64,000 bases of DNA from Trypanosoma brucei (GCA_000002445.1 CP000066.1:128001-192000); one strand, 5' to 3'. Shown: positions 10,289 through 31,922, numbered from the stretch's first letter. The notes: generated by a model from the letters alone, not told the origin. Translations and numbers: made by a program.

Positions 10289-10294
10289 CACACA

Positions 10295-10335
<41 letters not shown>
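10289..10335. repeat. (CA)n dinucleotide microsatellite, about 23 units
   Basis: Direct reading: cacacaaacacacacacacacacacacacacacacacacacacc. Confidence 0.95.
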
Positions 10336-10336
<1 letters not shown>

Positions 10337-13300: not shown

Positions 13301-16300
13301 CCGCGAGGGGTTGAGGTTATTTGGGTTTCTACTTCCCAATGTGCGCATTTGCTGCTTGGAGTTAAATCAAAAAATACTGTGATGATACCAGCCCTGAATG
13401 ACCCCCTGTGTTCTGCCGCTTGTTCCAAGACAACCCCTTGTACGGGGGAGAGTAGCGGTAACGGCTGTTAAAGCGGATAAACCACACACAAAATAACGTA
13501 ACTTGGCATCCCGTTTACCATCCCTACTTTCCAGCGACTGATCGGGTAGGTTACGTGCATACTCTTGGGGGTCAACACTCTCCCATTAGATAATAAAGAG
13601 ATAACCTACTGTTTCACAAACCATCTGCGTTTTCTGGCTACAAAGGTTTATGTTGGGTAAACATCTGCACTATTGCAGTACAGACTTCACATTTTACAGG
13701 AGGCATATTCGCGGGACGAACAAGCGTAACGCAAGTCATACACTGGTAGAATGCCACTGCAACGGCACGGTCCTCCATAGGAAAAGTGTCGATACTGGTT
13801 CGCCACATCGCAAGGGAGAAGCAGACAGGAGCGAAAGACACTATTCTCATAGAAAAAGAGCGATTGAATAGCTTGCCAACAAACTCGGGTGCGCGAGGCA
13901 AAGAATGGCTCGAGCGTGCCCCAAAGAAACTAGGAATATAAAGGAGGTTACGCTATTGTCTCCGGTAAGAATGGAAACACAGACGACAACACCAAAAACA
14001 GATACACTGGCGCAACACTTCTTGAGCAAAGAGCTGAAAATCTTCTAAATGGAATGACGTTATGTGACAATGTAAGCGGAAAAGTAGCGGAGAAACATAA
14101 GGTGAAAAGTGCGATCAAAGGAAAGACACAGAGTGATGGAGAGGAAAAACATTTAAGGCAAGAACCACAGAAACAGCAGCCATCAACTCAACCAATCAGG
14201 AATTCCCACCGAGGTTACAAAACACGCAAGAAATAATTGTCACCAGGCCATTGCCGATAAAGGGACGGCTGCAGCTGTAATATCACCGGGGGCTGAGGAA
14301 GTAAGGACATATTATTTCCATGGAACAAGCAAACTAACGCGCAGTTACAGAGCATAAACTGTGCAATGAAAAGTGGATTCGAATCACTCGTAGGTGCCCC
14401 CAGGAATGCATCGAAAAAGTGGGAAAGTAATAGCATTTACCAACTCGTTGTCCCGGCCCGTTGTCTCTCACAAAACGGAGACCGCGAGTATCAATGAGGA
14501 AATCCCGTAGCTCAAATTAAGAAACTCCGTATAATTAACTGGAAGAATGGTAAACCCAACGTTTGAAACTGTATTATTACACCGTAGTGAAATACAAACT
14601 GGTGAACCGGCATGAAAAGACAACTTGGTGCCACAGCAGTGCTCATTGCGGAAGACGGGCGTTATTAAAGCTGTGATGGAGTGGAAACCAAAATGAAGGA
14701 AATCAATTTGAAAACACACAAAATTCCAAAGTGTGCCCCGACGAGGAATCGTATGAAACGCATCCGCCCCATGCTGAGGGGGATATCTCTCTTTGCACGA
14801 AAAAAGGTTAATACTGATCCGGTTTCGGAGAAGGACAACAAGGCATTTGTGTGGCACATGACAACAATATGGAAAAAAGAGAACGGACAACATCAAATAC
14901 AAACGGTGTTCTGTTGTGAACATTGACAGCCCTCTTCAAAAGTTTTTGTTGCAATGGACGGGTGACCGGCCCCAAAGCGCCATCGCGGCCAAGTGCAATG
15001 CGACAAAAACTTACTCATATGTCCAGTGCACTTTATTATACAAATGCGACGTGTTTTAGCAACTGACCGAGCGATAAACAAGCATCAATGGGAAAGGAAA
15101 AAGAACATGGAAAGGACTCCGAAAAGGAAACAAAACACAGATAACATACAGAGTGGACTCTAACTTCCATGCATCTATTGTATTTTATTTTATTTCGAAC
15201 AAATGCAATTGGTATGGGAATGCGTGCCACGACGCTTCTGAGGGAACCTTCCAGACGACCTTTTAGAAGCAAAAGGGAGACCTATCTGAAGAAACGGTGG
15301 AGAGCAAGGAAAGGAAAAAGGCTAAATTGACCCTTTCGTCCACCAAGCGTACCAACTGGGTGGGTGGTTGAGGAAGCGCAACGACACAGGTCATTCAAAC
15401 GGGGGCGAACAGAAGGCGCGGCCAAAAGCCCAAAGGACATATCACCAGGAAAATATGGCGGGGATGTGGAATTTCAAATGAGCCCAAGGAATTTTAAGCG
15501 AAAGGGGGAATTGGCATGTTGCAGGTGCAACAAACTGGATCACCGTGTCAAAAACCGATGGCACAGTCATGCAAACAAGTTGAAACCAAAGTTCCCCATT
15601 CGCCACAACAAATGCGGTTGACACTGGATAACGGGGCACTCGAAAAGCGACAACCCGAACGACCGAAGGAGTACCAGCGCCATGTTGTAAAAAAAGAAGC
15701 GCAGGCACAATTAAAAGGATGATTAAGAAAACGAAGCGCGAAAGGTAAAGGATGTGATCGCAGAAAGGAACGTGAAGGATGACAGCGAAAACACTGTATT
15801 CCTTGAAAAATTAGAGATGGTAATGCAAAAAAGGGCGGACTGAAGCGCAGAGTAGAGCACGGTACAAGATGTCGATGGTGCGATTATTAGCCTGTTCACT
15901 TGTCAGAATTGATTTTACACACCAGGAACAAACACTTCGATAAAAATGCAATGGGAAGAGATTGAGAAGCGGAGCGTTCCTAGTATTGAAGACGGTTCCA
16001 AAGGATCTCCAATGTACGCAACACCCGACAAAATGTATGGAACAAGGTACCCTCATCGAGCACTTGTAGCACTGGCGTGGGCACAAAATAGAGGGCTGCT
16101 GTGACGCTCTAAGAGTAGGGTGAGTGGAAACTCCCACACACTTACTACAATGAATAGCCCCTGAGCACTAAGTGGATAATGTGGCTTGATTAGACCCGAG
16201 AAAAGAGGTTAACGGCTTCGCGTAAATGTGGAAATTTTCTTGGTAAAGTTGTTTAGGCCCGACGATGTAGAGAAGGAAGCGCTACCTCCCTCCGATGCGG

Positions 16301-18994
16301 CACACAGAAATCCAAACAGCAAGGTTTAAAGGTATACGTTGGCTGAAACCATGGCACGTAACAATGCAACTAAATCGGAAGATGCCGGTGGCATCACTGT
16401 TGCCAGCGCGAACAGACCTAACGCCGCAGTGGGTGAAGTAGTAATGCAAAGTCGACCGCTAGCTAAAAGATGTCAAACAAAAAGTAAACATAGGGAAATG
16501 CTAGGTACTTAATCGATGGGTGGTAACAAACCCAAACAAAAAGTAGAAGATATCGTTGAAGCAGGCAGATACTGAACAGGCAACGAAGAACAAAGGGGCT
16601 ACCGGCTTGCAGAAATAACAGAAAGCAAAGTGTGGGGTAAGGTGTGGAAAAACAACGGGGAAACTGACTTTTTTGGTGTTAGTTGTGGTGATATTTTCAT
16701 ACACCTAAAGAGGGTGGTCGAGCCAAAGAAAAGGTGGCAAACGCGCAGAGGAACCGCGTAGCTGCATTGACCTGTGTGAAAAGAAAAAAAAATACTTTAC
16801 CAGCATCCGAGGGTTTGTATATTTTGTGTACAAACGAGGGTTGAATTGTGATTGTCACGGGAGTCCGCGGGAACTATAAGAACAAAGTAGAATTAGTAAT
16901 GCATTCAGCGGGCTGCGCGTTAGTGCCCTAGAACATGCTTGCACTCAATACTTTCATTCCCATCACCGTATCTATCGTCGTTTTCATTGCTCCCCCCCTA
17001 TATTCCCGTTATTCCAAGCTCCTCTCTGCGGATTTGCTTGCGATTTAACGCCTTGCTCCCGTCGCATGGCCTTACAAGTGAAACATCGATGAGAACACGC
17101 AACTTCCCCTACGATAAAAGTTGAAAATGCAAGGCATCACACAACCTGCCGACACTTGTGTATTCCATGGCTTCGAAGGGGAAAAACACGTTTCCCAACC
17201 AACGTGAAGAATATTTTTTCGAAACGACAGAGAAGCAAACAAAGCAGATTGTTTCCCCACTGAATGTGATATTCCCCGGAGTTTTCTTTGTGCAGGTTGT
17301 GGGTCGTGAGGGCCCACTTAGTTCGATTCAGGGCATCTTTTTCCTTCCCCGGGGCTGGAGATCGCGTGAAACAAAGGGCGCGGTCACTACCACCAAATCC
17401 GCTATTTAATCATCCCATTTATTAGGAGCATGTACGTACGATGAAAAGAAAAGAAAGTAAATTAGCACGTGCATTTATACATGTGCGTGCCTCTCCCCCA
17501 TATTCCCTACTGCGTTCCACGTGTTGCGTAATTGCCTTTTTTTGACCGTGTTTTATCCCCTCGCGTAGCCTCGTCGATTGCTACATTTTACCTGAAGGCG
17601 AGGGGTGAACCGCATCCCCGGGAACGTGTTTTGTAGGTTCGTCTGATGGTTTAGGTGTAAAATATCTCGCCTCCGGCCGCTCTCGTTGTGCGCTGCGTCT
17701 AATCGGGCGTTTTTCGAATTGGAAGGGCGTTAGCGCTCTTTTGGTGTTTTTCACTGATGTGCAAAAAAAAAGTGGGTGCTTTAGGAGGTTTGGTTTTTGT
17801 CGTTTGCCACCGTGCTTCGTCCAGTTGAGACGCTGGTTTGAATGATTTTACAACCTGAGTGGCCCTCGGTACCTCTTTTTCCGAACCCTAGCCACTTATT
17901 TTCCGCTGTTTTACCACGTATCGCACATCAGATTTTTGAATCCCTGATAAATGTGGATGTGAAACGTGGGACCCGAAAGCGCCTTGGAGGACATGAGCGT
18001 GATGATGAGACGAGCACAGCAACGACTGGTCGCGCATGAGGCAATGGAAATTACACGCACTTTTCCATCGCTCGTATTCCGAGTTAAGGGGCAGGTTGGG
18101 TGGGTGCTGCAGCGGCTCGTAGCCATCCTCTTTTCAGATATTAAAAAAGGGACACGAAAGTCGAGGCAACTGCAAATGGGCACGGAAACCCGGCGACAAA
18201 TTGTGCTTCGATGTCGCCCTACACAAGCCATATTATCTCACCTTGTGTGATTTCATCAGAGCGCTTCCACCGCAGAGTCCCAACCAATGATGTGTGCAGC
18301 TAAACCAAACACGCCAGAGTACAGAGCAGAATAGGTTGCAACACAATACAATGGTCGCGACACCGTAGCGCATGGCGATGGACAACGGCAGACGCACTTC
18401 ATTCGCAAACGAAGAAACTGGTCCGAAACTTGCTGCGGCCGATGCGTGTCAGCATCCAATATTACGGGACTTTATCAAGTTATCGATTGCTCGGAAAGGA
18501 AACGAGACCTCGTGGCGTCAAGAACGACATGCTGCGGTGTAATTTTGTGCTGTTTGTCCTGCTAATAAACTCAATGGCTCCATTCCGGGGACGCTTCATT
18601 TCAAAACCTTTTTCAGTCAATGTCAGAAAAAATGTGAAAACCCCGAACGCGATTTATTTTATTGTCCACGGAACCAAACACACAAATACCCCGTCAAGAG
18701 AGTTGGTGTTTTCAAGAGAGAGATTAACCTCAGTTTCGGGAAGAATATTGAACGAAAAGTCTTTTCCCTACGAAGTTGTTCAAAGATTTAACTCTTTTTT
18801 TTTCTTTCACCCTATCGCGTGCGTGGGGAATTGAATTAATCCCCCATACTTCGGAAGCTAAAAATGGGGAAGATGGGTACCACTGGCTCACCCTCGCTTT
18901 TCTTTTGATTCCCGACCCTACACGCTGAAGGTCGGTGTTCTTTTTGGTAGCGCACAAGAACGGCAGTCCACTCACGTGCGCAATCCTTGTTTTC

Positions 18995-19075
18995 GTCACA
19001 GAACTTTCCAGTCCCGTTTTAACTTCAAAATTTCCGTCTTTTTTCTTTACACTTTACTGTAAGCGCGGTATCAAA
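18995..19075 (+). promoter_or_regulatory. Polypyrimidine tract and AG dinucleotides upstream of the transporter ATG (candidate trans-splice acceptor region)
   Basis: Pyrimidine-rich run ttttcgtcac...cgtcttttttctttacactttactg 40-120 nt upstream of the ATG at 19115, with AG dinucleotides after it. This is the usual kinetoplastid arrangement for spliced-leader addition. The site itself is inferred, not mapped. Confidence 0.4.
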
Positions 19076-19114
19076 GGGACTAACCATCGGTTTAAGGCAG
19101 TCATAAAAGTAAGA

Positions 19115-20503
19115 ATGATGCTCGGGTTCGAATCGGTTTCTGAGTTTACAGTCTACATCACCTTTATATTCTTCGGAATGTCGGCGGTGGTGGTGACAAC
19201 TTCCATATTTTCGATTCCATTCTTTTTTATCGAGTACTACAAGTATGCGCAGGGGGATCCCAATGCAGAGGCGGAGGATCAAAGGTTTTGGAATAACGTC
19301 TTCACGTACTACAATGCCACGACGTTCCTTGTGGAGTTCCTTCTGACTTTATTCATGCTGACAAATCTTGGAAGGCGGATCCCTCTGGCTGTTCGACTCG
19401 GTGCCGGTCTCATCCTCTCAATTTTGGCAGTTTTCGTCGTGATAATGGTCACCATAATAAAAACAACAGAAACCGGCGCCAAGGTAACGATTATGCTCGT
19501 CGGTGTGATCAATGGTGTTGCGGCAACACTTTGTGACACCGGAAACGGTGCCCTTATTAGCCCGTTCCCTACAAAATTTTTCAGCGCCGTTGTGTGGGGT
19601 GTCGCAGTTTGTGGTATCATCACATCGTTCTTCTCTATCGTAATAAAAGCATCTATGGAGAGCAACTACGAAAGCATGTTGACACAGTCCCGAATTTTCT
19701 TTGGCTTGGTTGTCCTTCTTGAAGTGGTTTCCTGCATCCTCTTGGTGCTTCTGAGGAAGAACCCATACGCCATGAAGTATGCAGCAGAGTTTCGGTACGC
19801 CGCAAGGGAAAGGACCAATGCTTGTGAAAACAAAGAAAGTGGCGCATCAAATGGCCCAGCAGAACAAGATGAAGACTCCGTGGCGATTGATAATAACACC
19901 ACGAAAGGGAACGTGATGACGGTCACCGTGGACCCCGACACCATGAAGGACACGGACCAAGTGGAAGACATTACAAACTCGCAGCAAATGCTGAAGGCGA
20001 AGGTATCTGTGGTGCTGAAGCGCGTCTGGCCCATGCTGGCGGCGGGTTTCCTCGCCTTCTCCACCACATTTCTCGTCTACCCTGGTGTATTCTTCGCCGT
20101 CAAAACCGATGTGCCAAACGGTTGGTATATGACTATTACTGCGGCGATGTTTCATTTCGGTGACTTCCTATCGCGCCTCCTCCTTCAGTTCAAGCGGCTG
20201 CAGCCTTCACCACGTTATGTTGTGGTTGGGACATTTGCACGTGTCTTTCTTATAATTCCTCTTGTTTTCTGTGTGCGCGGTATCATTGGTGGCACTCTTC
20301 TCCCTTACATTCTTTCATTTCTTTGGGGCCTCACGTACGGATATTTTGGCGGGATGGCGCTAATACACACGCCACGCACCGGTTCACTGACAGCAGCTGG
20401 TGAACGCTCTCTTGCTGCCAATTGTGCCGTCATTGCGATTCTGTGCGGTCTTTTCTCCGGCTCCATGCTCGCGCTTGCCGTCAAGGAGGGACTTCCTCAA
20501 TAG
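19115..20503 (+). CDS. Equilibrative nucleoside transporter (ENT family; adenosine/nucleoside transporter-like), multi-pass membrane protein
   Basis: ORF 18935-20503. The N-terminus MMLGFESVSEFTVYITFIFFGMSAVVVTTSIFSIPFFFIEYYKYAQGD matches the start typical of trypanosomatid NT/AT nucleoside transporters, and about 10-11 hydrophobic segments are present. I trimmed the start to the ATG at 19115 (MMLGFES); the 60 codons upstream read like flank sequence. It is the only long plus-strand gene in the window. Confidence 0.7.
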   Translation: MMLGFESVSEFTVYITFIFFGMSAVVVTTSIFSIPFFFIEYYKYAQGDPNAEAEDQRFWNNVFTYYNATTFLVEFLLTLFMLTNLGRRIPLAVRLGAGLILSILAVFVVIMVTIIKTTETGAKVTIMLVGVINGVAATLCDTGNGALISPFPTKFFSAVVWGVAVCGIITSFFSIVIKASMESNYESMLTQSRIFFGLVVLLEVVSCILLVLLRKNPYAMKYAAEFRYAARERTNACENKESGASNGPAEQDEDSVAIDNNTTKGNVMTVTVDPDTMKDTDQVEDITNSQQMLKAKVSVVLKRVWPMLAAGFLAFSTTFLVYPGVFFAVKTDVPNGWYMTITAAMFHFGDFLSRLLLQFKRLQPSPRYVVVGTFARVFLIIPLVFCVRGIIGGTLLPYILSFLWGLTYGYFGGMALIHTPRTGSLTAAGERSLAANCAVIAILCGLFSGSMLALAVKEGLPQ

Positions 20504-23500
20504 CACCGCCCTTCATGGGAACCTCATTGGGCTTTTGGAGCCATATCCGTAAATGAGAAAAATTGCAAGCAAGTACACAAGAGGTGCTTGCTAGCGAATA
20601 TAAACTTGTGGTAACCGAATAAAAAAAAGAAAGAGTGTGTTTGGCACGACCGAACATACGTGAAAGCAAAAAAAAAAAAGCCGTGAGGTGACGTGGTCAA
20701 AGGCGAAGTGAGGCAAGGGGAAGCGCAACTAAAAGAAAGGTTGGGACTTGTAGTCCGGGTTTCAAGAAAAGTCGGGCCACAAGGGACGTGCGCGCGACCT
20801 CCAAAAAGTTATTCTTTGGCTAATTTCCCCCTTTGTTTGTTATTTTTTAAAGTTTATTTATTGTTATTATTATTACTATTATTATTTTTTCCGGTCCCTT
20901 CACAGACACATGCCCACCGTTCTTCACGATATGGATATCACCCGTGTAAACGGAGAGGTGTTTCTGTTTATTTTCATAAGATTTTATTACCCAAGCCCCC
21001 CTCCACTAACAAATTATTTTCTCATATTTTATGGCGGTGCTTTCACTCCACAATACCTGACGCCTTCCACTGGTTATACATCCCACAAGAACGTGTGGAA
21101 AGAAATGCCATTCAGTGTGGAGAATAGCCGAACATATTGGTAGGTTATATCTTTTTTTTTTTTACTCAACTTCATTCTTACGAAAAATTTTTTACTCTGT
21201 GTCCTAAAAACGGGGAAGTGGGGTGAGGAAAGAATATGGGATGGCACTTAAATATACTACTCCATTCTCCTAACTTTCGTTCGTGCTCCACACTCACAAA
21301 AACCAAACCGCGGAACCTTTCAAGGAGTTTTTGTGGTCCATATCGAGCCTTCAAACCATGCAAACCCATTTTTTTTTTTACCTTTTCAATGTTCATTTAT
21401 GTATGAAAAGGAAACCTAGAGTTTGAATAAGCAGCGAAGGAATAGCACCCGTCGCACTGGCTACGCATCTTTTGGTGCAAGTTATGGAACTTACGGCATG
21501 AATTAGAAGGGGCCCAACCCGAAGTGTTGATCATCAACTGATACTCAATGCACGCAAAGTTTTGTTTTTCTAATGATGAGGGTTCACATGCCGCATGTTG
21601 GCGGTGCAGTCGACTGATTGAGATGTCAATGGAACAAACCTCGTTTCGACGCCCAATGGACGGGGGAACTATGCAGTCCGGAATTCGAAATCGTCGACTT
21701 CATGGTGAAGCTGCATCCGTTTTACTCCCACGTCGTCGCAGTCATTGGTGATGCGCGGGGGCACTTAATCTTCACCCACAAACCCCGAAAGCTCAGAGCC
21801 AAAAACGGAAGGATTGAAATTGACGTATCTTGCCAGGTTAGTGGAATCAATGAGCATACTACTTCCGTACTGCAGTTAGCGTAAATAATGTTTTTATTAT
21901 CATGAAGGGAGGAAAGAACATACACGTGAACCTCGTACCGTACACGAAAAGGCGTTGCTGGCGAAATAACGGCACAATCGAATCGGCACCAGCACCACAG
22001 CAGGAAATAAAGCGGGGAATGCAGATGGGACCGGGTATCAGAAGCAAGATGTGACGCACACTTTAGCTGGGTGTGGTCGCGAAAGCAAATCACATGTAAT
22101 TGCAATTGCGGAACTCACCGCAAGCAATACGGAAAACTTAAGCCCGAGACGCACCGATGGAACTTCGTGAGCTCACCTTTTTGGGAAGGTTGAGCTCATC
22201 ACGAAAGCAAGGGCAGGCGACCCATGACAGCTGGTTGTCTTCAGGCAGTTGGAAAAGTTTAAAACCGGAAGCGCCGAGTGAACTGTTTAATACGGCTCCG
22301 CAGGAGGAACTGACTTTACTTTTTTTTAAAAATCCTACACAAACGATACCAGCACCGACAACAATGTTGCCAGGGAAACACGTTCCAACGAGTTCCCACG
22401 GGAGTTGGGGCCTCTCGAGTGGAAGAAAGGGTCCACGTGCGCTGAATCAAGAAAACTCCTTCCTTTATTGAGGTTATTGAGTCTAAAAACCCAAATCTCT
22501 CGAAGTCAGCCTTATGTGGGAGATATGTGCGTGCACCGGGGTGGCAGAACTGAACCTTCCCCCACTGCGCAGGCGTACTAAACAATATCGATTCAATTGG
22601 AATGCTTCTGCGCCTTCGAATTTTGGCTTTGTCATCAATATGCCGCGCCAACGCCTCGGACGCGGCGTAGCCTGATATTAGTAGTTGCTCTCAATCAACT
22701 AACATTAGCCACCTTGAGAGTATGGAGGAATTAAACTAAACATTTCAAACCTCAACGAGGCCACGAATTCTAGTCGCTGGACATGACGAACACGCAAATT
22801 TCAGATACGTTACTTTGAGATCAGCAGCGGGTGTTTAAATTGGAGGCGGGGAGGTTCAATGGGTGTTATAAGAAATCACAGGCATTACGGTGTTGGGTAA
22901 AGTCATGACAATTCGGAGGGAGGCATCACGACACCTTTTTTGTTTTGCCGCAAAAAGTGGTTTTGGATGACCTTTTCAGCCATCAAAGTTCTGATGGATC
23001 AACACCTCAGGAACGCGAAACTTTGCACGTGGGGACTCTGCCGTATTGAAATGGCTGCACGGAGGGTGCCATATGTTATTTTACCCTCTTTAGCTCCTCC
23101 TCTGTTGGAGGGACTTAAAAAAGAAAAAAAGGGAGTTTTCGCAGCGAGCGCGTGTTGAAACACTCACTTGACGCGACCACAAGGGATAACTTAAATTGGT
23201 TTCAATTCACATTTTTTCCGGAGTATTTCTGAGAAATGGGGAGAAGCCAAACTCGCCACCAGCCCTCACTCGTTCGGGGAGAGGCATTTGGCCGCTTTCT
23301 TAACGGTCACTTGCCGCCACTCCGCCATTGCGCACAAAAATCCACCAGGCAGTGGCGTCGGGTTAAGTTATAATGCGGTGCGTGATGAAGACCGATAGTC
23401 CGCCATCCTTTAACGGGAGGCGTTATTTTTTTTTTTAAGTTTTATTTGTTCAGCTACAACTCACTCATTCGGTTGCAAGTGAATCTCAACAATCCAATAT

Positions 23501-24523
23501 CGCGCAATTCGTCACAGCACTCATTTCCATGAACTATACGGAGCGCTGCCTCCCACAGCAATGGGCGGAGAATAAAATCCAAATGTTTTTCCCATCATCC
23601 GTTACATAATGTCCTTCGGGCGAATAAACTCCTGACCGTTTATGTTCAAAATCAATTAATGATGGTGCTGAATAAGTTCCGCCCAATTCCGTTCATTTCC
23701 AAAGACGCCATTTACAAGTGCCCACCGCACGCAGCCGAATTTTACCGGCAGCTAAACTTCACCTCTTTGTTAAAATACGAAAAACTTTAAACAGTAGTAA
23801 TGGAATAATGCCTCCAGCCTCTACAAACGACAGCCGATGCTAAGGCCTTTTCTACTTGTTTTATGCGTGAGAATTTATGGAGAGAGCAAATAACCGAAGT
23901 TGTGAAATAGCGTAGATGGCAGTCGTAACGCAACATCACGGGAATATGAAACGAAATAGCGAGTCACAGCTATCACTTTCTTTATTAAAGCAAAAGGAAA
24001 AAAATCAAACCAGGAGCAAATGCAAGTTGAAAATAAACCTGGTGGTAGAGTGGTATAACTGCCCTCTCCCACTTTTGAGATTGAGAAACAAAAAAAGCAG
24101 CAACAACATATAGTCATTCCCAATTTCTTTAGTAAACTTGCGTGCCACTGTACGTTTCGCAAATATTAAAATCTATTCACTACTGACTCAGGTCGAATGT
24201 TAAATATCATCGTAAAACGCCATTCGGGGCAAATGGCGTGTTTAAAGCTCGTTCAAAATATCCTACAGGACATTCTCCCCCTATGGTTCATATAATTCAC
24301 AGCCCCGTAACGATTTGAAGACGGTTATACCATTATTAGGAAATAACATACTGTAGGAATTAGAAGCCCGTTGAAAGTGCAGGTGCCACGGATACTGCGG
24401 GGATATATTCGCACACATAATCAAGGGTGGATTAATTCACATAAGTGAAAAAGACATAATATTAACGTTGTCGAAAAGCATATATTGATTGCGGATGGAG
24501 GGACCAAATGACGCCTCATGCAC

Positions 24524-25222
24524 CTACAGGGAGAATAACAATACTGAATATATTGTGTTGTAAATCGATCGTAGTGGCTGTTCAGAAATACTTCCCTGTT
24601 GCTCAGCCGGCCGGGATGGACCCTCAGATTCAGTTGGAGCGTTCACTTTCTTATTGGAACCTGCAACTTGTTTTGCGGGTGCGTAATTACCATCACTTTG
24701 CGAAACCTTTTGGCTGGGTTTATTTTCTGTCGAATCATCACGTTTTCCCGCTGGACTGCCAATCCGTTTCTTCTCTCCTGGTGGTGATGGGGCCGAGTCG
24801 GGACTGTCAACAATGTTGTCTCGAGCCTCTGGACCTGATGGAACCCTCGGCTCCGGATTCGTGTCACCATTTTCTTTCACTTCTGAACCCTCCGGATTTG
24901 CGACATTTAGTCCGAAATAAACGGCAAGGAGGGCCCGGTTGCAAGTGTATGTCCACGGACAGCCCAAGCCGCCGATGCAGACGGTGCAGTTTCCTGGTCG
25001 ATCTCTTATTCGCCACTCTTTTTTCACTTCTGTGCAGTTGGCCCTTGCATACTGAGCTAGCTGCCGCTTTCCCTCGGAAGTGGACAGGAAGTTACTTCCG
25101 CCAAAGCTTGGGCAATCAGACACGTGAGCTGTTAAAAGCGGTAAGTTGGATGTAGAAGCGTGCACTAAACAAAATGTCAAGACAAACAAAATTAGCACGC
25201 ACCAAGCCCCAAACCTTGACAT
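24524..25222 (-). CDS. Candidate secreted/GPI-anchored cysteine-containing surface protein (hypothetical)
   Basis: ORF 24524-25297 minus, trimmed to the ATG at 25222. MSRFGAWCVLILFVLTFCLVHAS looks like a signal peptide. A 6-Cys module follows (CPSFGG...CTEVKK...CTVCIGGLGCPWTYTC), then an acidic Ser/Pro/Glu/Gly-rich extended region, then a short hydrophobic C-terminus YSVLLFSL consistent with a GPI signal. It has the same orientation as the downstream minus-strand array. The overlapping plus ORF 24508-25155 looks less protein-like. Confidence 0.5.
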   Translation of the reverse strand: MSRFGAWCVLILFVLTFCLVHASTSNLPLLTAHVSDCPSFGGSNFLSTSEGKRQLAQYARANCTEVKKEWRIRDRPGNCTVCIGGLGCPWTYTCNRALLAVYFGLNVANPEGSEVKENGDTNPEPRVPSGPEARDNIVDSPDSAPSPPGEKKRIGSPAGKRDDSTENKPSQKVSQSDGNYAPAKQVAGSNKKVNAPTESEGPSRPAEQQGSISEQPLRSIYNTIYSVLLFSL

Positions 25223-28133
25223 CGCTTTATGATGTATTACCTTAAAAGAAGATAAGCAAACATTGAAAAAGATTATTTTCGATGCAAAGCAACTCAATTT
25301 TTATCCAAAGATGCCTCCTTAACAACTCCCTCTATATTAAAGAGTCACGCTCACACCTGTGTCATTCCAGCAATTCCACAGAATATGAGAGTGGCAAACG
25401 GTATTTGTTTAGATTGAAATCTCATCCATTTGCACCCGCTTGACAACTCCAATCTTACGGTATTTACGATGAGAATCCTTTGGGAAATGGCGAGGTGCAA
25501 TAATGTTACGTCCTTCAGTGCTGTTGAACACAGTTGGAGCTCTAACCACAAAAACATAACATTCAAATAAAATCAACAGCCCTCTGATGCTTGCGGAATA
25601 TGTATGTAGAAAAAATAACTTAAAAATTTAAACAAATTAATACCTCAGTAATTGTTTTCCTTTTAATTTTTATTCATGACAAAAATGAAATGTGCTTCTC
25701 CTGAGGATCGCAAAACGCCGCCTTGTCATTCGAGTGCATATCCGATGAGATTAACCTCTTCAGAAACGGGAAGTTACTCATATTTACACTGAGCTCTCCG
25801 TATGAATGCGCCCCCACATGCATCGGGATGCCTTGACATGAACTCAAGTGATGAACCCTAAAAATTATTTATCAGCAAAGTCGTCTCAGTTTCATAATTG
25901 AGATGCCAACGTGAGCAGGACGAAGTGGTCCCACTCAAAATGAGAATTCAGTTGAAATAAATAATAGTGACGAATTTCGTCTCGCGATAATTATCCCCAG
26001 GCGGAAATCCTCACATAAAACTCCACCCCCAAAAGAAAACCAAAAAAATTTTAAACATATTTCCCTGTTCTTCCTTCACGAACATCTTTTCGCATCCGAG
26101 CCGTTGAGATGTTTCATTTTAGTTGCATTCACATCCGACGCATTCATTTCTACCATTTCTATTTGCACTTGGGCTGCTTAAAAAGAAAAAAAGAATTTCA
26201 ATGCAAATTTTCCCAACCTTGTCTATAATAATAATCATAATAATTACATTGGTTTTCCACCGACCAAATTGTCAACCTCCAATAGCGCTAGTTTTATTTC
26301 AAAGGCAAAACAACGCACTGAATTAAATTATGTACTGAAAATATATAACTCTGTGGTGACATTTTTTAAAATTGTTTTTATTGCATTCCTCCACATTTCC
26401 ACCTGAAAAGGCACAACTCCGCTTTCTGGATTCAGTTCTGCTCAGTGCTTGGGAGTTCCGCAAACATGAAACAATTGCTCCCTCCATTCAGTAACGCAAA
26501 CATAACGGGGAGGTTCAGTGATAAAATCCTTGAGCCCATGCATCAAACAGGAAAGAATTTACAACATAAAAGATGATTCGCACGAAATTACAAACGTTTA
26601 ACTGTCAAGGTGCAGTGACATTAACTGGTGTCGACTCAACGTAAGCTTTCAACAATGCCCCTCTTTTTCCTCTTTTTTTTTTGTTAATTCAGGGAAATCA
26701 TAACATAAAAGTGGCCGCTGCGAGTCACTTTGCAACGGAAAAACATTACTATTAAATAAATTTCTCAACATAACTCACAGATGCCGCTACCAAAAGCGAT
26801 GGGAATTGTGCTGAAACGTCACATCTTGTGGTATAAATTCGTGAGATATTCCCTCCTGACGTATAAAAACGGATATTTGTGCATTCAACAAACTCGTAAT
26901 GGTTCCTCATGAATAGTTTTCGAAAAGGTTCAAATAATCACCAACGTGAGCACAACGCCTGCAGTGATGCGAGTATTTATAAACGTCCCATGCAAAATTT
27001 AAGTTAACTGTGTTGAACTGTAATAAAGTTAAATTCAACCGAATGAGTTGAGGTTATTGTGTGGAGGTATTCATCACTCGTAACATCATGAGGAATTCGC
27101 CACACCTCCAACGTAATCATTTAAACTCCGCATGTAATTTGATAGAGAGTTATGTATGCAATTTAAAGTTGCTTCAACTGCCTTTTCTTTTCCCCCCCTC
27201 TCTCCTTTGAAATTGACTGATTCGTATATATTTTATTAACCCTCTCGCCCCATGAGGAACTCGGGCACTTCCGATAACAACAAATCAAACACCATTGGCG
27301 TAACGCTCAGGTGGTTTCAATGCGAAAAGTTTCTCAACCGGGGAGTATTCGGTATTGTAAACTCCGTTTCTTTCGTCCTTAACGTTAATTAATGGAGTTA
27401 TAATTCACAGGTCAAAACAAACAACATAACCAACGCCATTAACACCATTTGACTTTTTATTCCTTTCTTTCTTATTTAGCCTGCAAGGGAGAATTCAAGT
27501 GAGTAAAGGCATGATGATATCAATAGCCCAGAAACCAAAACAAATAAATGTGTGTTATTTGTGTACCTGAGGTTTCAGTTTGTTTTTAGCTTATAAAAGG
27601 AGAGAGAGAGGGAGGAAAAAATATTAAAATGGCACAACTCACACCAAATATGGTGCGTAGGAACATAAAGAAAAACATCTTCTAAAAAGGGCTGCTTAAA
27701 TAACTTAACTGTTGAAGGTTAATATCACCAATCACAGTGTTCATTTTCCCGCTGATAAACATGAAGTGAAAAAACAACAATCCAACTGAATATCAGCTTA
27801 ATTTTAGTCAGTGTACCTCAAGCGGATGCACACGTAACATTCCCCTCGGAACCCCAATATTACAAACGCTTCTTTTTGTTTTTACCCCCCAAGTTAACGC
27901 AACTTTCCATGAGGAAAAAAAAAATCCCTCAACTCATCTTAACAATCATCATCTTTTCACCGAATTTACTGCAAGCGAACAACTGGATAAAACCCCGTTG
28001 ACACCAATTCATTGACCCAACACACACGTAAACCCAAACAAACATCAACTAACACATCATATCTGCGTGAATGAACCTGAATCAAAAAAAAAACGAAGAG
28101 GAAACTTCACATGGCCAATATTTAATTTCTTTT

Positions 28134-28694
28134 TTAATTCCACTCCAATTCATCAGGACGCACCGGTGTGGAAAGGGGAATGACACTACTTTTCGTCCTT
28201 TCCTTATCTCTGGGCATTGCCTTTCGCATGTCAAGTGCATCTTCATTTTCCTTAAAAGGACCTTTTGAGCCACTGCCGTGATAATAATCCAATACGCGTC
28301 TATACACCACATATCCAAGTCCTCGATACATATCTTGTGCAACTTTATTACTTTGTCTTACAAAAAGATCTACAAAATACGCATTGTGAATATATTCAGT
28401 GGTTGCCTCAAGTTCTTTCATGAGTGTTACACCCAACCCAAGTCGTCGGAAGGTTGGCGCTACCGTAACTGCTGATACGTGTCCATGGAAATCTTCAGCT
28501 TCACCTTCCGCTTTTCCGAGTGTATAAGCCATCGTAACACCTGTAGTCGGATGAATGCAAATGCGTTGATACTCGGGCCAATGCGTTACATATTCTCCAT
28601 AAAAAGAGGAATTATATGTTTCAGTTAACTGGTCCATGTTGACAAAGTTAAAAGACATAATGTCCACTAAGTTGAAATCCCTAAAAGTGGTCAT
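28134..28694 (-). CDS. NAA20: N-alpha-acetyltransferase 20 (NatB catalytic subunit, NAT3/NAA20 homolog), GNAT fold
   Basis: MTTFRDFNLVDIMSFNFVNMDQLTETYNSSFYGEYVTHWPEYQRI...GHVSAVTVAPTFRRLGLGVTLMKELE...YFVDLFVRQSNKVAQDMYRGLGYVVYRRVLDYY aligns along its full length with human NAA20 as I remember it (MTTLRAF..DDLF.FNN.NLD.LTETY...FY..Y...WPEY). The start is set at the ATG at 28694, which I checked by reverse complement to read MTTFR. The 37 upstream codons of the ORF are flank. Confidence 0.85.
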   Translation of the reverse strand: MTTFRDFNLVDIMSFNFVNMDQLTETYNSSFYGEYVTHWPEYQRICIHPTTGVTMAYTLGKAEGEAEDFHGHVSAVTVAPTFRRLGLGVTLMKELEATTEYIHNAYFVDLFVRQSNKVAQDMYRGLGYVVYRRVLDYYHGSGSKGPFKENEDALDMRKAMPRDKERTKSSVIPLSTPVRPDELEWN

Positions 28695-29054
28695 GGCAAT
28701 ACGGACTGTTTCTCTCTTCCTACCAGTTGTTGTTGTTGTTGGTAGTTGTTTTGCGTGAGAATTGTAAAAAAAGAAAAGAAAGCGAAGAGACGTCACAAAC
28801 AACAAAAAAAAGTGTGTGTGTGTATGTGTGTGTATGGAGGGTTATTGTGCGACAATAATCATGCTACCGATAGCATTTACTCATGTTCAAGCGATTAGGT
28901 GGGGAAGTTACGGAACCGTGGAAAAACAAATGTGCCCAACCAGTATGCACATCGGTTTACCGCCAACGGCGCCTTTTCTTTATATTCGACTCGTCACTTC
29001 CATTTAAACGGTTACAGAAAGAAGATGTTTCTCCTCATCATCATTTTCCATGAT

Positions 29055-31481
29055 TTAGGCATCGAATTCAGTAAATTGCTGGTGTTTATATGTTGGACCC
29101 TCCAGTTTCTTTTTGTTTTCATACCAATCCCTCGTAACTTTGCGTTGCTTTTGAACCACTGTGCTCCTATAGCGGTCATCATGTGGCACCTCCGTGCGTA
29201 GCACTTTTCGAGGCCGCTCACTGCCATCATCCAACACAACTGATGTTGTTTCTCTTGCCACTTTTCTATCTTCCTTAATGAGTCCTTGCAACTGTGAGCG
29301 AACTTCGCTGGGTCTTTTGTCAATACCAAAGTTTTGAGCGACATGACCCAAATGAAGGGCATCGGAATTGAAGAAAAGACGCTTAAGTTCCCTGGAATGA
29401 CCGGCGTATGCTCTTATGTATGACTGATAGGCGAATAATGCAAGTCTGGTGATGTCATCAGTTCTGCCGGTGCTTTCATCATTCACATTTTCTTCGTTTG
29501 AATGCCGCTTCATAACTAGTCGGCATATGGCGCGCTCCAAAGTTGCAGTGCTCTGAGCCCACATGTGATTGGCTTTGGGATCCAATTTAGTTAAATAAAA
29601 GAGGAATGACTCATATTTCCTTTCCTCTATGATTCCTGATTCGGCATTGGCACCTTTCGCCATGGAACCTAATTTGGTTTCCTTTGCTAAGAAGTTACTC
29701 AAATAAGATGCATACCCCTCCTCGTGTGGCATGAGAAATAACATGGAATCCCCCGTGTTACCAATACGTGCTGTGCGGCCAATGCGATGAATGTAACACG
29801 GCGCATCAGTAGGCGGATCATAATGCACAATCCAATCAACATTAGGCATGTCAAGCCCCCGCGCGGCAACGTCTGTGCAAAAGAGAATTCCCTTTTTGGA
29901 AGGTTGAACGCTGCTGTCCATATGTTTGAAGGCATGGAAAACAGAGGCTCGATCAACTTGTGACATATTACCGTGCAGTTTAAATATGTTAACGTCAAGA
30001 ACAGCATTTTTCTCGGATAATTCACTTACTTCAGTCGGATCCTCATCATCCGAGTCATCATCAAAAGTGACAACGTCCTCATCTCGACCCTCGTGAATGT
30101 GCCTATTGGCTTCCCCAATACGCTTTTTTAAGCTGTAGCGATTTGAGTTTTTTTGAGGTGCGCCAGCGCTTCTGCCACTGTTTGTCTTGCCACGAAAAGG
30201 TGACTTCAATCTGGACAACAAATAATAATGAAATTCAGCACTGTCTGCAGTTGAAACAAAAACGATAAGTCTTTGAGCTCCAGCGTCCAACTGCGACCGA
30301 AGAAAGCTTATGAGTGTTGCCAGGCGGTGCTTTGTTGGTACCAATACATAGTGTTGCCGCAACGATGAAGGAATAGAAAAAGTGTCCTCCGTCTCACCAA
30401 CGCGAACAATATTATCCCGTAGCGCAAAATGAGAGAGTCGTTCAACAGCCGCCGTTATGGTGGCCGAAACGAGAACTCGTTTAAACGAGGATTGCGCGTC
30501 CCCGCCGCCTGTTTGGTGTGCGTCCCGTTTCTTCGCTACTAACAAATCCATAACCTCACGAATAGTCTTTTCGAACCCCATATCGAGTAACCGATCAGCC
30601 TCATCCAACACAATAGTTTGCAACTCCTCTACTCGAAAGGATGATGTGGCCTTGAGATGATCCAAAAGCCTTCCAGGCGTCGTTGCCAAAATTGTTATTC
30701 CTTTTCGTAGTCTCGCCTTTTCCTTGTGCCTATTCTCACCTCCATGAATCCCGCCTACCGTAAGGAAGAGGGCACAACGCGTAAGAATAGTGAGTACATC
30801 CGACACCTGTACTACCAACTCTCGAACTGGACACAAAACAATAATGACAGAACCGACGTCACGCTTCAGTGGCCGGGTGTCGCAATCGCAGAGCAATTGA
30901 TGAAGCAGAGGAAGCGCATACGCTAAAGTTTTACCGCTTCCCGTCTCGCTTCTGACGAGAACATCACGTGTTTTATCAACCATGGGCATCCAACTAAGTT
31001 TTTGTATGCGCGTCAACGAGTTAATGCACAAAACTTCTGTTAAGGGCCGAATCAACTTCTTGTGCACAAGTTCTGCTATGGGAGGAAGTGATTCGGCTTC
31101 ATGGCTTACACTATCTGCTTGAAACGCCACGGACTCCGCCTCAACTTCTTTCGGCACCGGCACTACTTTTGAGGCTGTTCGTTTTACGGGAACGTCACTT
31201 GATTTTTTCACACGTCCCACCGTTCCACCGTCGGGTTTCTGCTGCTGAACTTCCGAAGAACGTTGAGTCTTTTTGTCTTTTATAGATTCGCTAGAATTTG
31301 CACATTGCGTTGCCGCTTGGTTTTTCCTTTTGGCAGCACCCTTCACAACCACTTCGTCACTAATATCAGTTAACTGAGATGAACCGGTAGCAGAGAGTAA
31401 ATGCCGAAGTGCGTCTTGTTCGTCATTTTCCGTAAGGCCGTGAACACAGAGATGAGCCCTCTCGGAACCCGCTAGTGACAT
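29055..31481 (-). CDS. ATP-dependent DEAD-box RNA helicase with long N- and C-terminal extensions (nucleolar DDX10/DDX31-like class)
   Basis: Helicase motifs are present: ETGSGKTLAYALPLL (motif I), VLDEADRLLDMGF (motif II, DEAD), SAT, and HRIGRTARIGNTG (motif VI). I trimmed the start to the ATG at 31481 (MSLAGSER...). The 84 ORF codons upstream encode poly-Leu/poly-Pro from a low-complexity tract. Confidence 0.85.
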   Translation of the reverse strand: MSLAGSERAHLCVHGLTENDEQDALRHLLSATGSSQLTDISDEVVVKGAAKRKNQAATQCANSSESIKDKKTQRSSEVQQQKPDGGTVGRVKKSSDVPVKRTASKVVPVPKEVEAESVAFQADSVSHEAESLPPIAELVHKKLIRPLTEVLCINSLTRIQKLSWMPMVDKTRDVLVRSETGSGKTLAYALPLLHQLLCDCDTRPLKRDVGSVIIVLCPVRELVVQVSDVLTILTRCALFLTVGGIHGGENRHKEKARLRKGITILATTPGRLLDHLKATSSFRVEELQTIVLDEADRLLDMGFEKTIREVMDLLVAKKRDAHQTGGGDAQSSFKRVLVSATITAAVERLSHFALRDNIVRVGETEDTFSIPSSLRQHYVLVPTKHRLATLISFLRSQLDAGAQRLIVFVSTADSAEFHYYLLSRLKSPFRGKTNSGRSAGAPQKNSNRYSLKKRIGEANRHIHEGRDEDVVTFDDDSDDEDPTEVSELSEKNAVLDVNIFKLHGNMSQVDRASVFHAFKHMDSSVQPSKKGILFCTDVAARGLDMPNVDWIVHYDPPTDAPCYIHRIGRTARIGNTGDSMLFLMPHEEGYASYLSNFLAKETKLGSMAKGANAESGIIEERKYESFLFYLTKLDPKANHMWAQSTATLERAICRLVMKRHSNEENVNDESTGRTDDITRLALFAYQSYIRAYAGHSRELKRLFFNSDALHLGHVAQNFGIDKRPSEVRSQLQGLIKEDRKVARETTSVVLDDGSERPRKVLRTEVPHDDRYRSTVVQKQRKVTRDWYENKKKLEGPTYKHQQFTEFDA

Positions 31482-31560
31482 AAATATTTTCTTTTCCGCT
31501 TTAACAGTTTCCTTTTCCTTAACTTTTCCCCGACAAACCCCTTTGGTTCCCTCTGTTTTT

Positions 31561-31620
31561 AGGATGGTGAAGAGAGGAGGAGGAGGAGGAGGAGGGGGGA
31601 TAAAAAATAAAAAAAAAAGA
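31561..31620 (-). promoter_or_regulatory. Polypyrimidine tract (on the minus strand) upstream of the helicase gene, candidate trans-splicing signal
   Basis: The plus strand reads aggatggtgaagagaggaggaggaggaggagggggga taaaaaataaaaaaaaaaga, which is a long C/T run on the minus strand about 80-140 nt upstream of the ATG at 31481. Confidence 0.4.
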
Positions 31621-31922
31621 AGGCCAGTAGATGGTGAAATGTAATAAATTGCACGATAATGGGCAATCGCATGTTCGGAAACACTGACGGGTTTCAACAA
31701 CAACAACAACAATAGCACCAACAGCAGTAACAAAGATTATGTATAGATGTGCGGAATAAGCATTTGAGCTTACAAAAATGACAAAACACAAAACCCGTTC
31801 TTTACTTTTGTCATCGTCTCATCTTTCCTTTTTTTTTTTGTAATTGCACTTGTTTCCCCCTCGCCCAATTCCCATCATCGCCGTTACCACTATTTTCTGC
31901 CTCACCGTAACATGTGGTTCCC

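What the first reader, a model, noticed from the sequence alone, without database searches (positions are those of the whole stretch)
24524..25222. Terminal gene of the minus-strand array encodes a candidate small Cys-rich, acidic, GPI-anchored surface protein
The protein has a signal peptide, a compact 6-Cys module and an extended Ser/Pro/Glu/Gly-rich acidic stalk. The stalk is compatible with O-glycosylation or phosphorylation. A short hydrophobic C-terminus fits a GPI signal. This is the architecture of trypanosome stage-specific surface coat components (procyclin/BARP/mucin-like), but it shares no repeat motif with any of those that I recognise. Its position at the very end of a polycistron next to a convergent strand-switch would also fit position-dependent silencing or regulation.
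Basis: inference. Interest (0 to 1): 0.5.

Follow-up and report, generated by a model that had tools for sequence, protein, structure and literature searches.

The report
Known trypanosome surface-protein gene, hypervariable head
The ORF is Tb927.3.600, the published type gene of a Trypanosoma brucei-only family of small, predicted GPI-anchored bloodstream-stage surface proteins, so it is already known; what seems undescribed is that its cysteine-rich head differs drastically between strains while the DNA around it is nearly identical.

Summary
Window 24524-25222 (-) encodes a 232-aa protein with a signal peptide, six invariant cysteines, a non-repetitive disordered stalk and a short hydrophobic C-terminus. 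It is the last gene of the minus-strand unit and faces a convergent nucleoside-transporter gene. It is not acidic: the mature protein has pI 7.5 and the stalk pI 9.5.

The gene is 100% identical to Tb927.3.600, the example gene of 'Fam5' in the African-trypanosome cell-surface phylome (Jackson 2013). That paper lists it as T. brucei-specific, with a signal peptide, a GPI signal, a position next to a strand-switch region and bloodstream-enriched expression. Gadelha 2015 found its peptides 1165-fold enriched in the bloodstream surface-labelled proteome, with SignalP 0.996 and PredGPI 0.996. Reynolds 2016 lists Tb427.03.600 as going from RPKM 0 to 41-53 after base J loss. That change is not statistically significant, but the paralogue Tb427.03.2580 is significantly de-repressed.

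The antisense ORF is broken in 3 of 5 copies, so it is rejected.

New here: at the same syntenic locus in four T. brucei-group genomes, codons 1-145 are only 31-57% identical between head types and synonymous sites are saturated. The flanks and the stalk are 94-99% identical. T. b. gambiense carries at least two tandem copies with different heads.

Function remains unknown. The head model matches no solved fold.

The parts
24524..25222 (-). CDS of Tb927.3.600 (232 aa plus TAG stop), the Fam5 example gene
   Evidence: 100% identity to Tb927.3.600. The ORF is intact in 5 of 5 syntenic copies. It is listed in Jackson 2013 Table S1 and in the Gadelha 2015 surfeome.
25241..25270 (-). Polypyrimidine tract (25270-25244) and AG (25242-25241): inferred trans-splice acceptor, giving an 18-nt 5'UTR (25240-25223)
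   Evidence: Read directly from the sequence. A polyY tract plus AG is present upstream of the ATG in all five copies. There is no RNA evidence here, so this is an inference.
25154..25222 (-). Signal peptide, residues 1-23, with predicted cleavage VHA|ST
   Evidence: Hydropathy and the -3/-1 rule. Published SignalP 0.996.
24893..25153 (-). Head domain, residues 24-110. It has 6 invariant Cys, the motifs YAxxNCT and GNCT(V/L)C, and an invariant N78 sequon (N-C-T/S).
   Evidence: Alignments A1, A2 and A3. AF2 gives an alpha/beta domain with pLDDT about 70-86. It matches no PDB fold and no Pfam family.
24590..24892 (-). Disordered hydrophilic stalk, residues 111-211. It is non-repetitive with mixed charge; its conserved part, residues 147-211, has pI 9.5.
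   Evidence: pLDDT below 50. Composition. No tandem repeat.
24527..24589 (-). Predicted GPI-addition signal, residues 212-232, following the candidate omega site S211 (S-I-S)
   Evidence: S211 is invariant across all four subfamilies, with S or N at omega+2, a polar spacer and a 9-13-residue hydrophobic end. Published PredGPI 0.996. Not shown chemically.
24788..25222 (-). Divergence island (codons 1-145): 31-57% nucleotide identity between head types, against 94-99% in both flanks
   Evidence: Sliding-window and segment identities across four genomes and five copies. dS exceeds 1 between types and is 0.02-0.09 in the C-terminal part.
24508..25155 (+). Antisense 'shadow' ORF (215 aa), not a gene
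   Evidence: Its stop-free run is cut to 140-185 aa in 3 of 5 copies, while the sense frame stays open in all. It has no Pfam hit.
20504..24523 (.). Convergent strand-switch region between Tb927.3.590 (+) and Tb927.3.600 (-)
   Evidence: ORF map. No tRNA genes, no Rfam families and no repeats were found there. Reynolds 2016 flags Tb427.03.600 as within 10 kb of base J and H3.V.
18935..20503 (+). Converging neighbour: a nucleoside transporter (the adenosine transporter Tb927.3.590 / Tb427.03.590)
   Evidence: Pfam Nucleoside_tran, E 6.8e-23. Named in the Reynolds S4 table passage.
23856..27882 (-). About 4-kb unit (gene plus 2.66 kb upstream and 0.67 kb downstream). It is single in this window and tandemly repeated three times in T. 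b. gambiense DAL972.
   Evidence: blastn of the window region against L001. A second intact gene copy lies at L001:14017-14715. The third unit is interrupted by a 100-N gap at L001:17797-17896.
28134..28805 (-). Upstream neighbour in the same transcription unit: a GNAT acetyltransferase, with a DEAD-box helicase at 29055-31733 further upstream. Both serve as synteny anchors.
   Evidence: Pfam. The same gene order is seen in L001, L002 and L003.

Best explanation
Window 24524-25222 (-) is Tb927.3.600, the type member of Fam5. Fam5 is a family of eight genes found only in the T. brucei group.

Inferred mechanism:
- The pre-protein enters the ER through a cleaved 23-residue signal peptide.
- The roughly 85-residue head folds around three disulfides and probably carries an N-glycan at the invariant N78 (N-C-T).
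- The C-terminal 21 residues are exchanged for a GPI anchor at S211.
- The mature protein of about 20 kDa then sits at low abundance on the bloodstream-form surface, flagellar pocket or endosomal system. Its head is held away from the membrane by a disordered stalk of about 100 residues.

Expression appears to be set partly by position. The gene is the last in its polycistron, in front of a convergent termination region marked by base J and H3.V. Premature termination there can silence it.

The head is the functional, host-facing part. It exists as several ancient sequence types that share only the cysteine and sequon scaffold. The stalk, GPI signal, UTRs and flanks are kept nearly identical by recombination. 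The likeliest history is a tandem array of divergent paralogues with copy loss and gain by unequal crossing-over, with head diversity kept by balancing or diversifying selection from the host.

Shown: gene identity, architecture, synteny, the divergence island, copy-number difference, and published mass-spectrometry and transcript data. Inferred: GPI attachment, glycosylation, disulfides, surface exposure, and selection as the cause of the diversity. The biochemical function of the head is unknown.
For: Identity and family:
- 100% match to Tb927.3.600.
- It is the Fam5 example gene: T. brucei-specific, SP yes, GPI yes, 8 copies, bloodstream signals about 14,000 against procyclic 2,400-3,600.
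- Fam4-7 are described as lying next to strand-switch regions and expressed preferentially in bloodstream forms.
- The orthogroup has 8 T. brucei members and none in T. congolense, T. vivax or T. cruzi.
- A profile search of 1.84 billion representatives finds only T. brucei-group proteins.

Protein evidence:
- 19 PSMs and 2 peptides, 1165-fold enrichment in the surface-labelled fraction, SignalP 0.996, PredGPI 0.996.

Architecture:
- Described.
- S211 is invariant, with a small residue at omega+2.
- The paralogues Tb927.10.5700/5710 are positive in both BigPI and FragAnchor.

Synteny and hypervariability:
- Shown: - The same pattern holds in two other subfamilies: pS is 0.23-0.37 in the head against 0.03-0.07 elsewhere.

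Positional regulation:
-.
- Tb927.10.5710 is also the last gene before a convergent SSR.
Against: - GPI anchoring has not been shown chemically for any Fam5 member.
- GFP-tagged ESP3 (Tb927.10.5700) localised 'elsewhere'. The authors allowed that it could be a contaminant or mislocalised by the tag.
- No directly fluoresceinated peptide was seen for Tb927.3.600 (flag F), and only 2 peptides were found.
- Expression data conflict. The microarray shows strong bloodstream signal, whereas wild-type Lister 427 bloodstream RNA-seq gives RPKM 0. Savage 2012 found the chromosome 10 paralogues barely expressed and possibly salivary-gland specific.
- The J-dependent change for Tb427.03.600 has Cuffdiff P values of 1, 1 and 0.41.
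- pN/pS in the head is 0.35-0.98, never clearly above 1. Positive selection is therefore not demonstrated, and old paralogy with relaxed constraint would give similar numbers.
- The AF2 head model has only moderate confidence (mean pLDDT 69), so 'no known fold' is a weak conclusion.
Confidence: 0.72

Rival explanations
1. The protein enters the secretory pathway but is not a GPI-anchored plasma-membrane protein. It would be soluble and secreted, or resident in the ER or endosomes. On this view its enrichment in the surface-labelled fraction reflects pocket or endosome content or carry-over.
For: The tagged paralogue ESP3 localised to 'other' compartments, not the flagellar pocket, cell body or flagellum. 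The C-terminal hydrophobic stretch is weak (KD 1.46 over 13 residues). No fluoresceinated peptide was seen.
Against: PredGPI gives 0.996 for this protein, and BigPI plus FragAnchor are positive for the paralogues. S211 and the tail layout are conserved across all subfamilies even though their stalks cannot be aligned. The tail's last 9 residues are as hydrophobic as those of VSG signals recalled from memory. The ESP3 tagging vector replaces or flanks the native signals and may mislocalise the protein, as the authors themselves caution.
Confidence: 0.17
2. The gene is a decaying or functionless species-specific ORF at the silent end of a transcription unit. On this view the head 'hypervariability' is neutral drift of old duplicates that are shuffled by unequal crossing-over.
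For: RPKM is 0 in wild-type Lister 427 bloodstream forms. pN/pS in the head is 0.35-0.98. Copy number varies between strains. No homologues exist outside T. brucei.
Against: The reading frame is intact in 5 of 5 copies although synonymous sites are saturated. All six cysteines, the YA..NCT and GNCTxC motifs, the N78 sequon, the signal peptide and the omega-site Ser are invariant or nearly invariant (at least 90%) in the family alignments, whose heads are 20-31% identical across subfamilies. All indels are in frame. Peptides were detected and the microarray shows bloodstream signal.
Confidence: 0.09
3. The real gene is the antisense ORF 24508-25155 (+), as annotated for the second copy in the T. 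b. gambiense DAL972 record.
For: A 215-aa ATG-initiated ORF exists in this window. In L001 a 245-aa minus-strand gene (13994-14731) is called over the second copy.
Against: The antisense frame is interrupted in 3 of 5 copies, with longest open runs of 140, 149 and 185 aa, while the sense frame is open in all. It would run against the direction of its transcription unit. It has no signal or domain features and no Pfam hit. The mass-spectrometry peptides were assigned to the annotated Tb927.3.600 protein, which is the sense-strand product.
Confidence: 0.01

Closest known systems
Fam5 of the African-trypanosome cell-surface phylome (Jackson et al. 2013). Members: Tb927.3.600, Tb927.3.5670, Tb927.3.2550-2580, Tb927.10.5700/5710.
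   Same: It is the family's example gene. Like the rest of the family it has a signal peptide, a predicted GPI signal and a T. brucei-only distribution, lies next to strand-switch regions and is bloodstream-biased in expression.
   Different: Nothing differs, because this is membership by identity. I did not find described in the papers read here either the extreme between-strain divergence of the head at the syntenic locus or the extra copies in T. b. gambiense. The locus is absent from Table 1 of the T. b. gambiense genome paper.
ESP3 (Tb927.10.5700), Gadelha et al. 2015
   Same: It is a paralogue with the same head scaffold, stalk and tail. It is also highly enriched (2842-fold) in the surface-labelled proteome and is also one of the last genes before a convergent SSR.
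   Different: The heads are only about 25-30% identical and the stalks cannot be aligned. ESP3 was tagged and localised 'elsewhere'. Tb927.3.600 itself was not among the 25 candidates tagged in that study.
VSG and VSG-related proteins
   Same: Both have a signal peptide, a GPI signal and a variable N-terminal part joined to a conserved C-terminal part. Both evolve by recombination among copies and are de-repressed with loss of J/H3.V. Fam5 genes sit beside VSG-related genes at other loci.
   Different: There is no Pfam Trypan_glycop, VSG_B or VSG C-terminal-domain hit. The head is about 85 residues and alpha/beta, not a long helical bundle. No VSG-related relic lies in this window. There are a handful of genes rather than hundreds.
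Procyclins (EP/GPEET), BARP and trypanosomatid mucins
   Same: All are small secretory proteins with a predicted GPI anchor and an extended, low-complexity region.
   Different: This protein has no tandem repeats, is not acidic, has a Cys-rich folded head, and has bloodstream-biased rather than insect-stage expression. It also shows no sequence similarity to these proteins.
Small GPI-anchored disulfide-rich ectodomains such as Ly6/uPAR/CD59 (analogy only, recalled from general knowledge)
   Same: Both consist of a single disulfide-rich domain of about 70-90 residues tethered by GPI.

Membership tests
Fam5 (T. brucei cell-surface phylome) | Sequence homology to Fam5 members | tested here: met
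   100% identical to the family's example gene. The profile finds Tb927.3.5670 (E 3.6e-19), the chromosome 10 pair (E 7e-8) and TEOVI_000696500 (E 5e-13). The published orthogroup has 8 members.
Fam5 (T. brucei cell-surface phylome) | N-terminal signal peptide | tested here: met
   Hydrophobic core at residues 4-22 and a VHA|ST cleavage motif. Published SignalP 0.996.
Fam5 (T. brucei cell-surface phylome) | Restricted to the T. brucei group | tested here: met
   Only T. b. brucei, T. b. gambiense, T. equiperdum and T. b. equiperdum proteins were found among 5.8 billion and 1.84 billion sequences. Other trypanosomes have none in the orthogroup.
Fam5 (T. brucei cell-surface phylome) | Located next to a strand-switch region, often in tandem | tested here: met
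   It is the last minus-strand gene before a convergent SSR. It is a single copy here and tandem in T. b. gambiense.
Fam5 (T. brucei cell-surface phylome) | Preferential expression in bloodstream forms | not testable with these tools
   Literature only: bloodstream signal about 14,000 against procyclic 2,400-3,600. This conflicts with RPKM 0 in wild-type Lister 427.
GPI-anchored proteins | C-terminal signal: small omega and omega+2 residues, a polar spacer and a terminal hydrophobic stretch with no cytoplasmic tail | tested here: met
   S211-I-S213, spacer EQPLRS, tail IYNTIYSVLLFSL at the extreme C-terminus. S211 is invariant in the family. Published PredGPI 0.996.
GPI-anchored proteins | Covalent GPI shown chemically (PI-PLC release, CRD epitope, lipid labelling) | not testable with these tools
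   No experiment was found for any Fam5 member. The ESP3 fusion did not reach the surface.
Procyclin / BARP / mucin-like coat proteins | Tandem amino-acid repeats (EP, GPEET or Thr-rich) or an Ala-rich helical bundle, acidic character, and insect-stage expression | tested here: not met
   No repeats. Mature pI 7.5 and stalk pI 9.5. No Pfam hit. Published expression is bloodstream-biased.
VSG superfamily (VSG, VSG-related, ESAG2/6/7, PAG) | Trypan_glycop or VSG_B N-terminal domain, or the VSG C-terminal domain | tested here: not met
   No Pfam family at E up to 1. No PDB sequence match. No fold match.

The most novel reading that the evidence does not exclude
Tb927.3.600 may be a strain-variable, host-facing determinant rather than an 'invariant' minor surface protein. 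On this reading, several ancient head types are kept in the T. brucei population by balancing selection, as a trans-subspecies polymorphism older than the brucei/gambiense/equiperdum split. They would be shuffled as cassettes between near-identical flanks. Expression would switch on or off through base-J-dependent termination at the end of the transcription unit. That would amount to a second, small-scale layer of surface variation outside the VSG system, possibly linked to host range or immune recognition.
Probability: 0.12. Interest if true: 0.7.

Novelty: already known. Interest (0 to 1): 0.3.

Why it matters
It does show that the architecture can be recognised from raw sequence.

What could matter is the sharply bounded divergence island of about 435 bp. 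Head identity between types is 31-57%, inside DNA that is 94-99% identical between subspecies, and copy number differs between strains. Non-VSG surface proteins of bloodstream T. brucei are sought as vaccine and diagnostic targets and as host-interaction receptors. A family whose exposed domain is polymorphic between strains would be a poor invariant antigen. It could, however, be a good marker of host-driven selection, and it offers a tractable case of regulation by termination at the end of a transcription unit.

Tried and rejected
- Pfam scan of the sense and antisense products: nothing at E up to 1.
- PDB sequence-profile search: nothing.
- The AFDB50 library was unavailable.
- A head-only profile search of the 5.8-billion-sequence database returned no hit at all, not even the family itself. 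I treat this as a tool limitation and not as evidence.
It was re-run without that row.
- TREU927 loci for Tb927.3.5670 and Tb927.10.57xx were not on record, so T. b. gambiense, IVM-t1 and OVI loci were used instead.
- Gene conversion from paralogues at other loci as the source of the head types is not supported. In the head alignment, sequences from the other three subfamilies are only 23-29% identical to this head. I did not have the four Tb927.3.2550-2580 sequences themselves.
- A VSG-related relic in the 2.9-kb upstream spacer: none found by tblastn.
- tRNA genes, Rfam families and long repeats in the strand-switch region: none.
Ten of its longest ORFs gave no Pfam hit.
- The supplements of the ribosome-profiling paper do not mention the gene.
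- No paper in the library names Tb927.3.600 in its main text.

Full report
**What is at the coordinates**

On the minus strand an ORF runs from ATG 25222 to the TAG stop at 24526-24524 and encodes 232 aa. Upstream there is no in-frame ATG. A pyrimidine-rich tract (25270-25244) followed by an AG (25242-25241) lies 18 nt before the start codon. That is the layout expected for a trypanosome trans-splice acceptor, and it is present in all five related copies examined. This is an inference, since no RNA data were examined.

The protein starts with a typical signal peptide, MSRFGAWCVLILFVLTFCLVHA|ST. A segment of about 85 residues with six cysteines follows. After that come about 100 hydrophilic residues that AlphaFold2 leaves disordered, with pLDDT below 50 for residues 111-215. 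The protein ends in ...SISEQPLRSIYNTIYSVLLFSL. The terminal hydrophobic stretch is only 9-13 residues and has no tail after it. It cannot span a membrane, but it resembles the GPI-addition signals of VSGs (the VSG signals were recalled from memory).

No tandem repeat is present at the DNA level.

The word 'acidic' is wrong. The mature protein has pI 7.5, the conserved stalk has pI 9.5 (11 K/R against 8 D/E), and only the head is mildly acidic at pI 5.3.

**Context**

All ORFs from about 63.3 kb down to this gene lie on the minus strand. They include a protein kinase, a cytochrome P450, a DEAD-box helicase and a GNAT acetyltransferase. The next ORF is a plus-strand nucleoside transporter at 18935-20503. 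The gene is therefore the last of its polycistron, in front of a 4-kb convergent strand-switch region. That region contains no tRNA genes, Rfam families or long repeats.

**Identity**

The protein is 100% identical to Tb927.3.600 of T. brucei brucei TREU927 chromosome 3. It is the example gene of family 'Fam5' in the published cell-surface phylome of African trypanosomes. Table S1 of that paper gives the following (PMC3605285):
- T. brucei-specific, with 8 copies.
- Signal peptide yes, GPI yes.
- Transcript signals of 13,864, 14,725 and 14,113 in three bloodstream conditions, against 3,602 and 2,381 in procyclic forms.

The text of that paper states that Fam4-7 genes are next to strand-switch regions, typically tandem, and preferentially expressed in bloodstream forms.

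A later orthogroup table lists the eight members as Tb927.3.600, Tb927.3.5670, Tb927.3.2550-2580 and Tb927.10.5700/5710. It lists none in T. congolense, T. vivax or T. cruzi (PMC10361982).

My own searches agree. A profile of the four closest sequences, run against 1.84 billion cluster representatives, found only three further clusters, all from the T. brucei group. Pfam, PDB sequence and fold searches gave nothing.

**Published protein and regulation evidence**

In the bloodstream-form surface-labelled proteome of Gadelha et al. (PMC4587319), Tb927.3.600 has:
- 19 PSMs and 2 peptides, covering 7.8% of the protein.
- 1165-fold enrichment.
- SignalP 0.996 and PredGPI (1-FP) 0.996.
- The label Fam05.

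The paralogue Tb927.10.5700 (ESP3) is enriched 2842-fold. When it was GFP-tagged, however, it localised 'elsewhere'. The authors regard this as possible contamination or tag-induced mislocalisation.

Savage et al. predicted GPI anchors for Tb927.10.5700/5710 with BigPI and FragAnchor. They found very low, possibly salivary-gland-specific, expression.

Reynolds et al. [quoted passage not shown] Their S1 table lists Tb427.03.600 as within 10 kb of both marks. Its RPKM values are 0 (wild type), 40.9 (+DMOG), 0 (H3.V knockout) and 52.6 (H3.V knockout +DMOG), but the Cuffdiff P values are 1, 1 and 0.41. The Fam5 paralogue Tb427.03.2580 rises from 0.73 to 5.5 and 14.6 with P = 0.001.

The RPKM of 0 in wild-type Lister 427 conflicts with the microarray and mass-spectrometry signals, and I could not resolve the conflict.

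**The antisense ORF**

Across five copies the sense frame is open throughout (233-261 stop-free codons). The antisense frame is cut to 140, 149 and 185 codons in three of them. The antisense ORF is a shadow of the coding strand. The T. b. gambiense record does annotate that antisense ORF over its second copy (L001:13994-14731), which I regard as a mis-annotation.

**What I found beyond the literature read here**

The three other database homologues come from T. equiperdum OVI, T. b. gambiense DAL972 and T. b. equiperdum IVM-t1. All lie at the same place, about 2.9 kb downstream of the same helicase and acetyltransferase genes. Yet they are only 77%, 58% and 48% identical in protein sequence.

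The difference is confined to a sharply bounded island:
- Upstream of about -60, and from codon 146 onwards, including the 3' flank, nucleotide identity is 94-99%.
- From the ATG to codon 145 (window 24788-25222), it falls to 31-57% between head types.
- Within the type represented here, codons 24-77 still differ by 43-44% from the closest relatives.

Synonymous divergence is saturated between types (dS from 1.3 up to undefined) but is only 0.02-0.09 in the C-terminal part. dN/dS in the head is 0.35-0.98. The heads are therefore old lineages rather than the product of a recent burst of positive selection. Everything around them has been homogenised.

Segment-by-segment relationships are mosaic. 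For example, the gambiense copy 1 and IVM signal peptides are 70% identical to each other and 41-52% identical to the other three copies, while their heads are only 31% identical.

T. b. gambiense carries three tandem 4-kb units:
- Copy 1 has a 'B' head.
- Copy 2 has an intact 'A' head, 79% identical in protein to this window's.
- In the third unit the gene falls in a 100-N assembly gap.

This locus is not in the published list of T. b. gambiense-specific duplications.

The same pattern of a variable head inside a near-identical gene recurs in two other subfamilies. For the chromosome 10 pair, pS is 0.37 in the head against 0.03 elsewhere. For the Tb927.3.5670 group, it is 0.23 against 0.07.

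Across the 11 aligned family heads, from all four subfamilies (heads 20-31% identical across subfamilies), the following are invariant or nearly so:
- The six cysteines.
- The motifs Y-A-x-x-N-C-T and G-N-C-T-x-C, including the N78 sequon.
- An F/L-G after the last cysteine.
- Ser211 in front of the C-terminal signal.

That is the signature of a constrained scaffold with variable surfaces.

**Most likely mechanism**

The protein is a secretory glycoprotein of about 20 kDa. A three-disulfide head is carried on a disordered spacer and is probably GPI-anchored at S211. It is present at low abundance at the bloodstream-form surface, flagellar pocket or endosomes. Its expression is modulated by termination at the end of the transcription unit.

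The head diversity is best explained by an ancestral tandem array of divergent paralogues. Unequal crossing-over between near-identical units would add and remove copies, and host-imposed selection would maintain different heads.

**Verdict**

The gene is already known as the type member of Fam5, so novelty is low. The strain-level hypervariability of the head, the extra gambiense copies and the mis-annotated antisense gene are modest additions that merit population-level follow-up.

Noticed in passing
window 1-18900: This 18.9 kb upstream of the nucleoside transporter has no ORF longer than 151 aa on either strand. GC skew is strongly negative in the first 8 kb (-0.14 to -0.24). Eleven of its longest ORFs gave no Pfam hit, and there are no tRNA genes, Rfam families or long repeats. 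It may be degenerate retroelement or pseudogene sequence, but its identity was not determined.
   Followed up: partly
L001:13994-14731 (T. b. gambiense DAL972, FN554966.1): The public record calls a 245-aa gene on the antisense strand of the second Fam5 copy. The sense ORF (L001:14017-14715, 232 aa, 79% identical to Tb927.3.600) is intact and has all family hallmarks, so the annotation appears to be on the wrong strand.
   Followed up: yes
L001:15376-20708, gap at 17797-17896: T. b. gambiense has a third copy of the 4-kb unit. A 100-N assembly gap sits exactly where the Fam5 gene would be, so the true copy number and the third head type are unknown.
   Followed up: partly
window 18878-21204, compared with L002 (T. 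b. equiperdum IVM-t1): IVM-t1 lacks a 2.3-kb segment that contains the whole nucleoside (adenosine) transporter gene Tb927.3.590. tblastn finds the transporter in the OVI locus but not in the IVM-t1 locus, which suggests a strain-specific deletion at the convergent strand-switch region.
   Followed up: partly
L005:4646-10693 and L004:773-5335: At other loci Fam5 genes sit directly beside VSG-related genes. On T. b. gambiense chromosome 10, two Trypan_glycop genes are followed by two Fam5 genes and then a convergent SSR. On a T. equiperdum contig, a Fam5 gene is followed by a VSG_B gene. No VSG-related sequence is present next to Tb927.3.600 in this window.
   Followed up: partly
window 10289-10335: A (CA)n dinucleotide microsatellite with 23.5 copies.
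   Followed up: no
window 24992-25153 (codons 24-77): Even within the head type represented here, this sub-segment is only 56-57% identical at the nucleotide level to T. equiperdum OVI and T. b. gambiense copy 2. Those two are 88% identical to each other. Codons 78-145 are 89-99% identical among all three. This points to a nested recombination breakpoint near the GNCTVC motif.
   Followed up: partly
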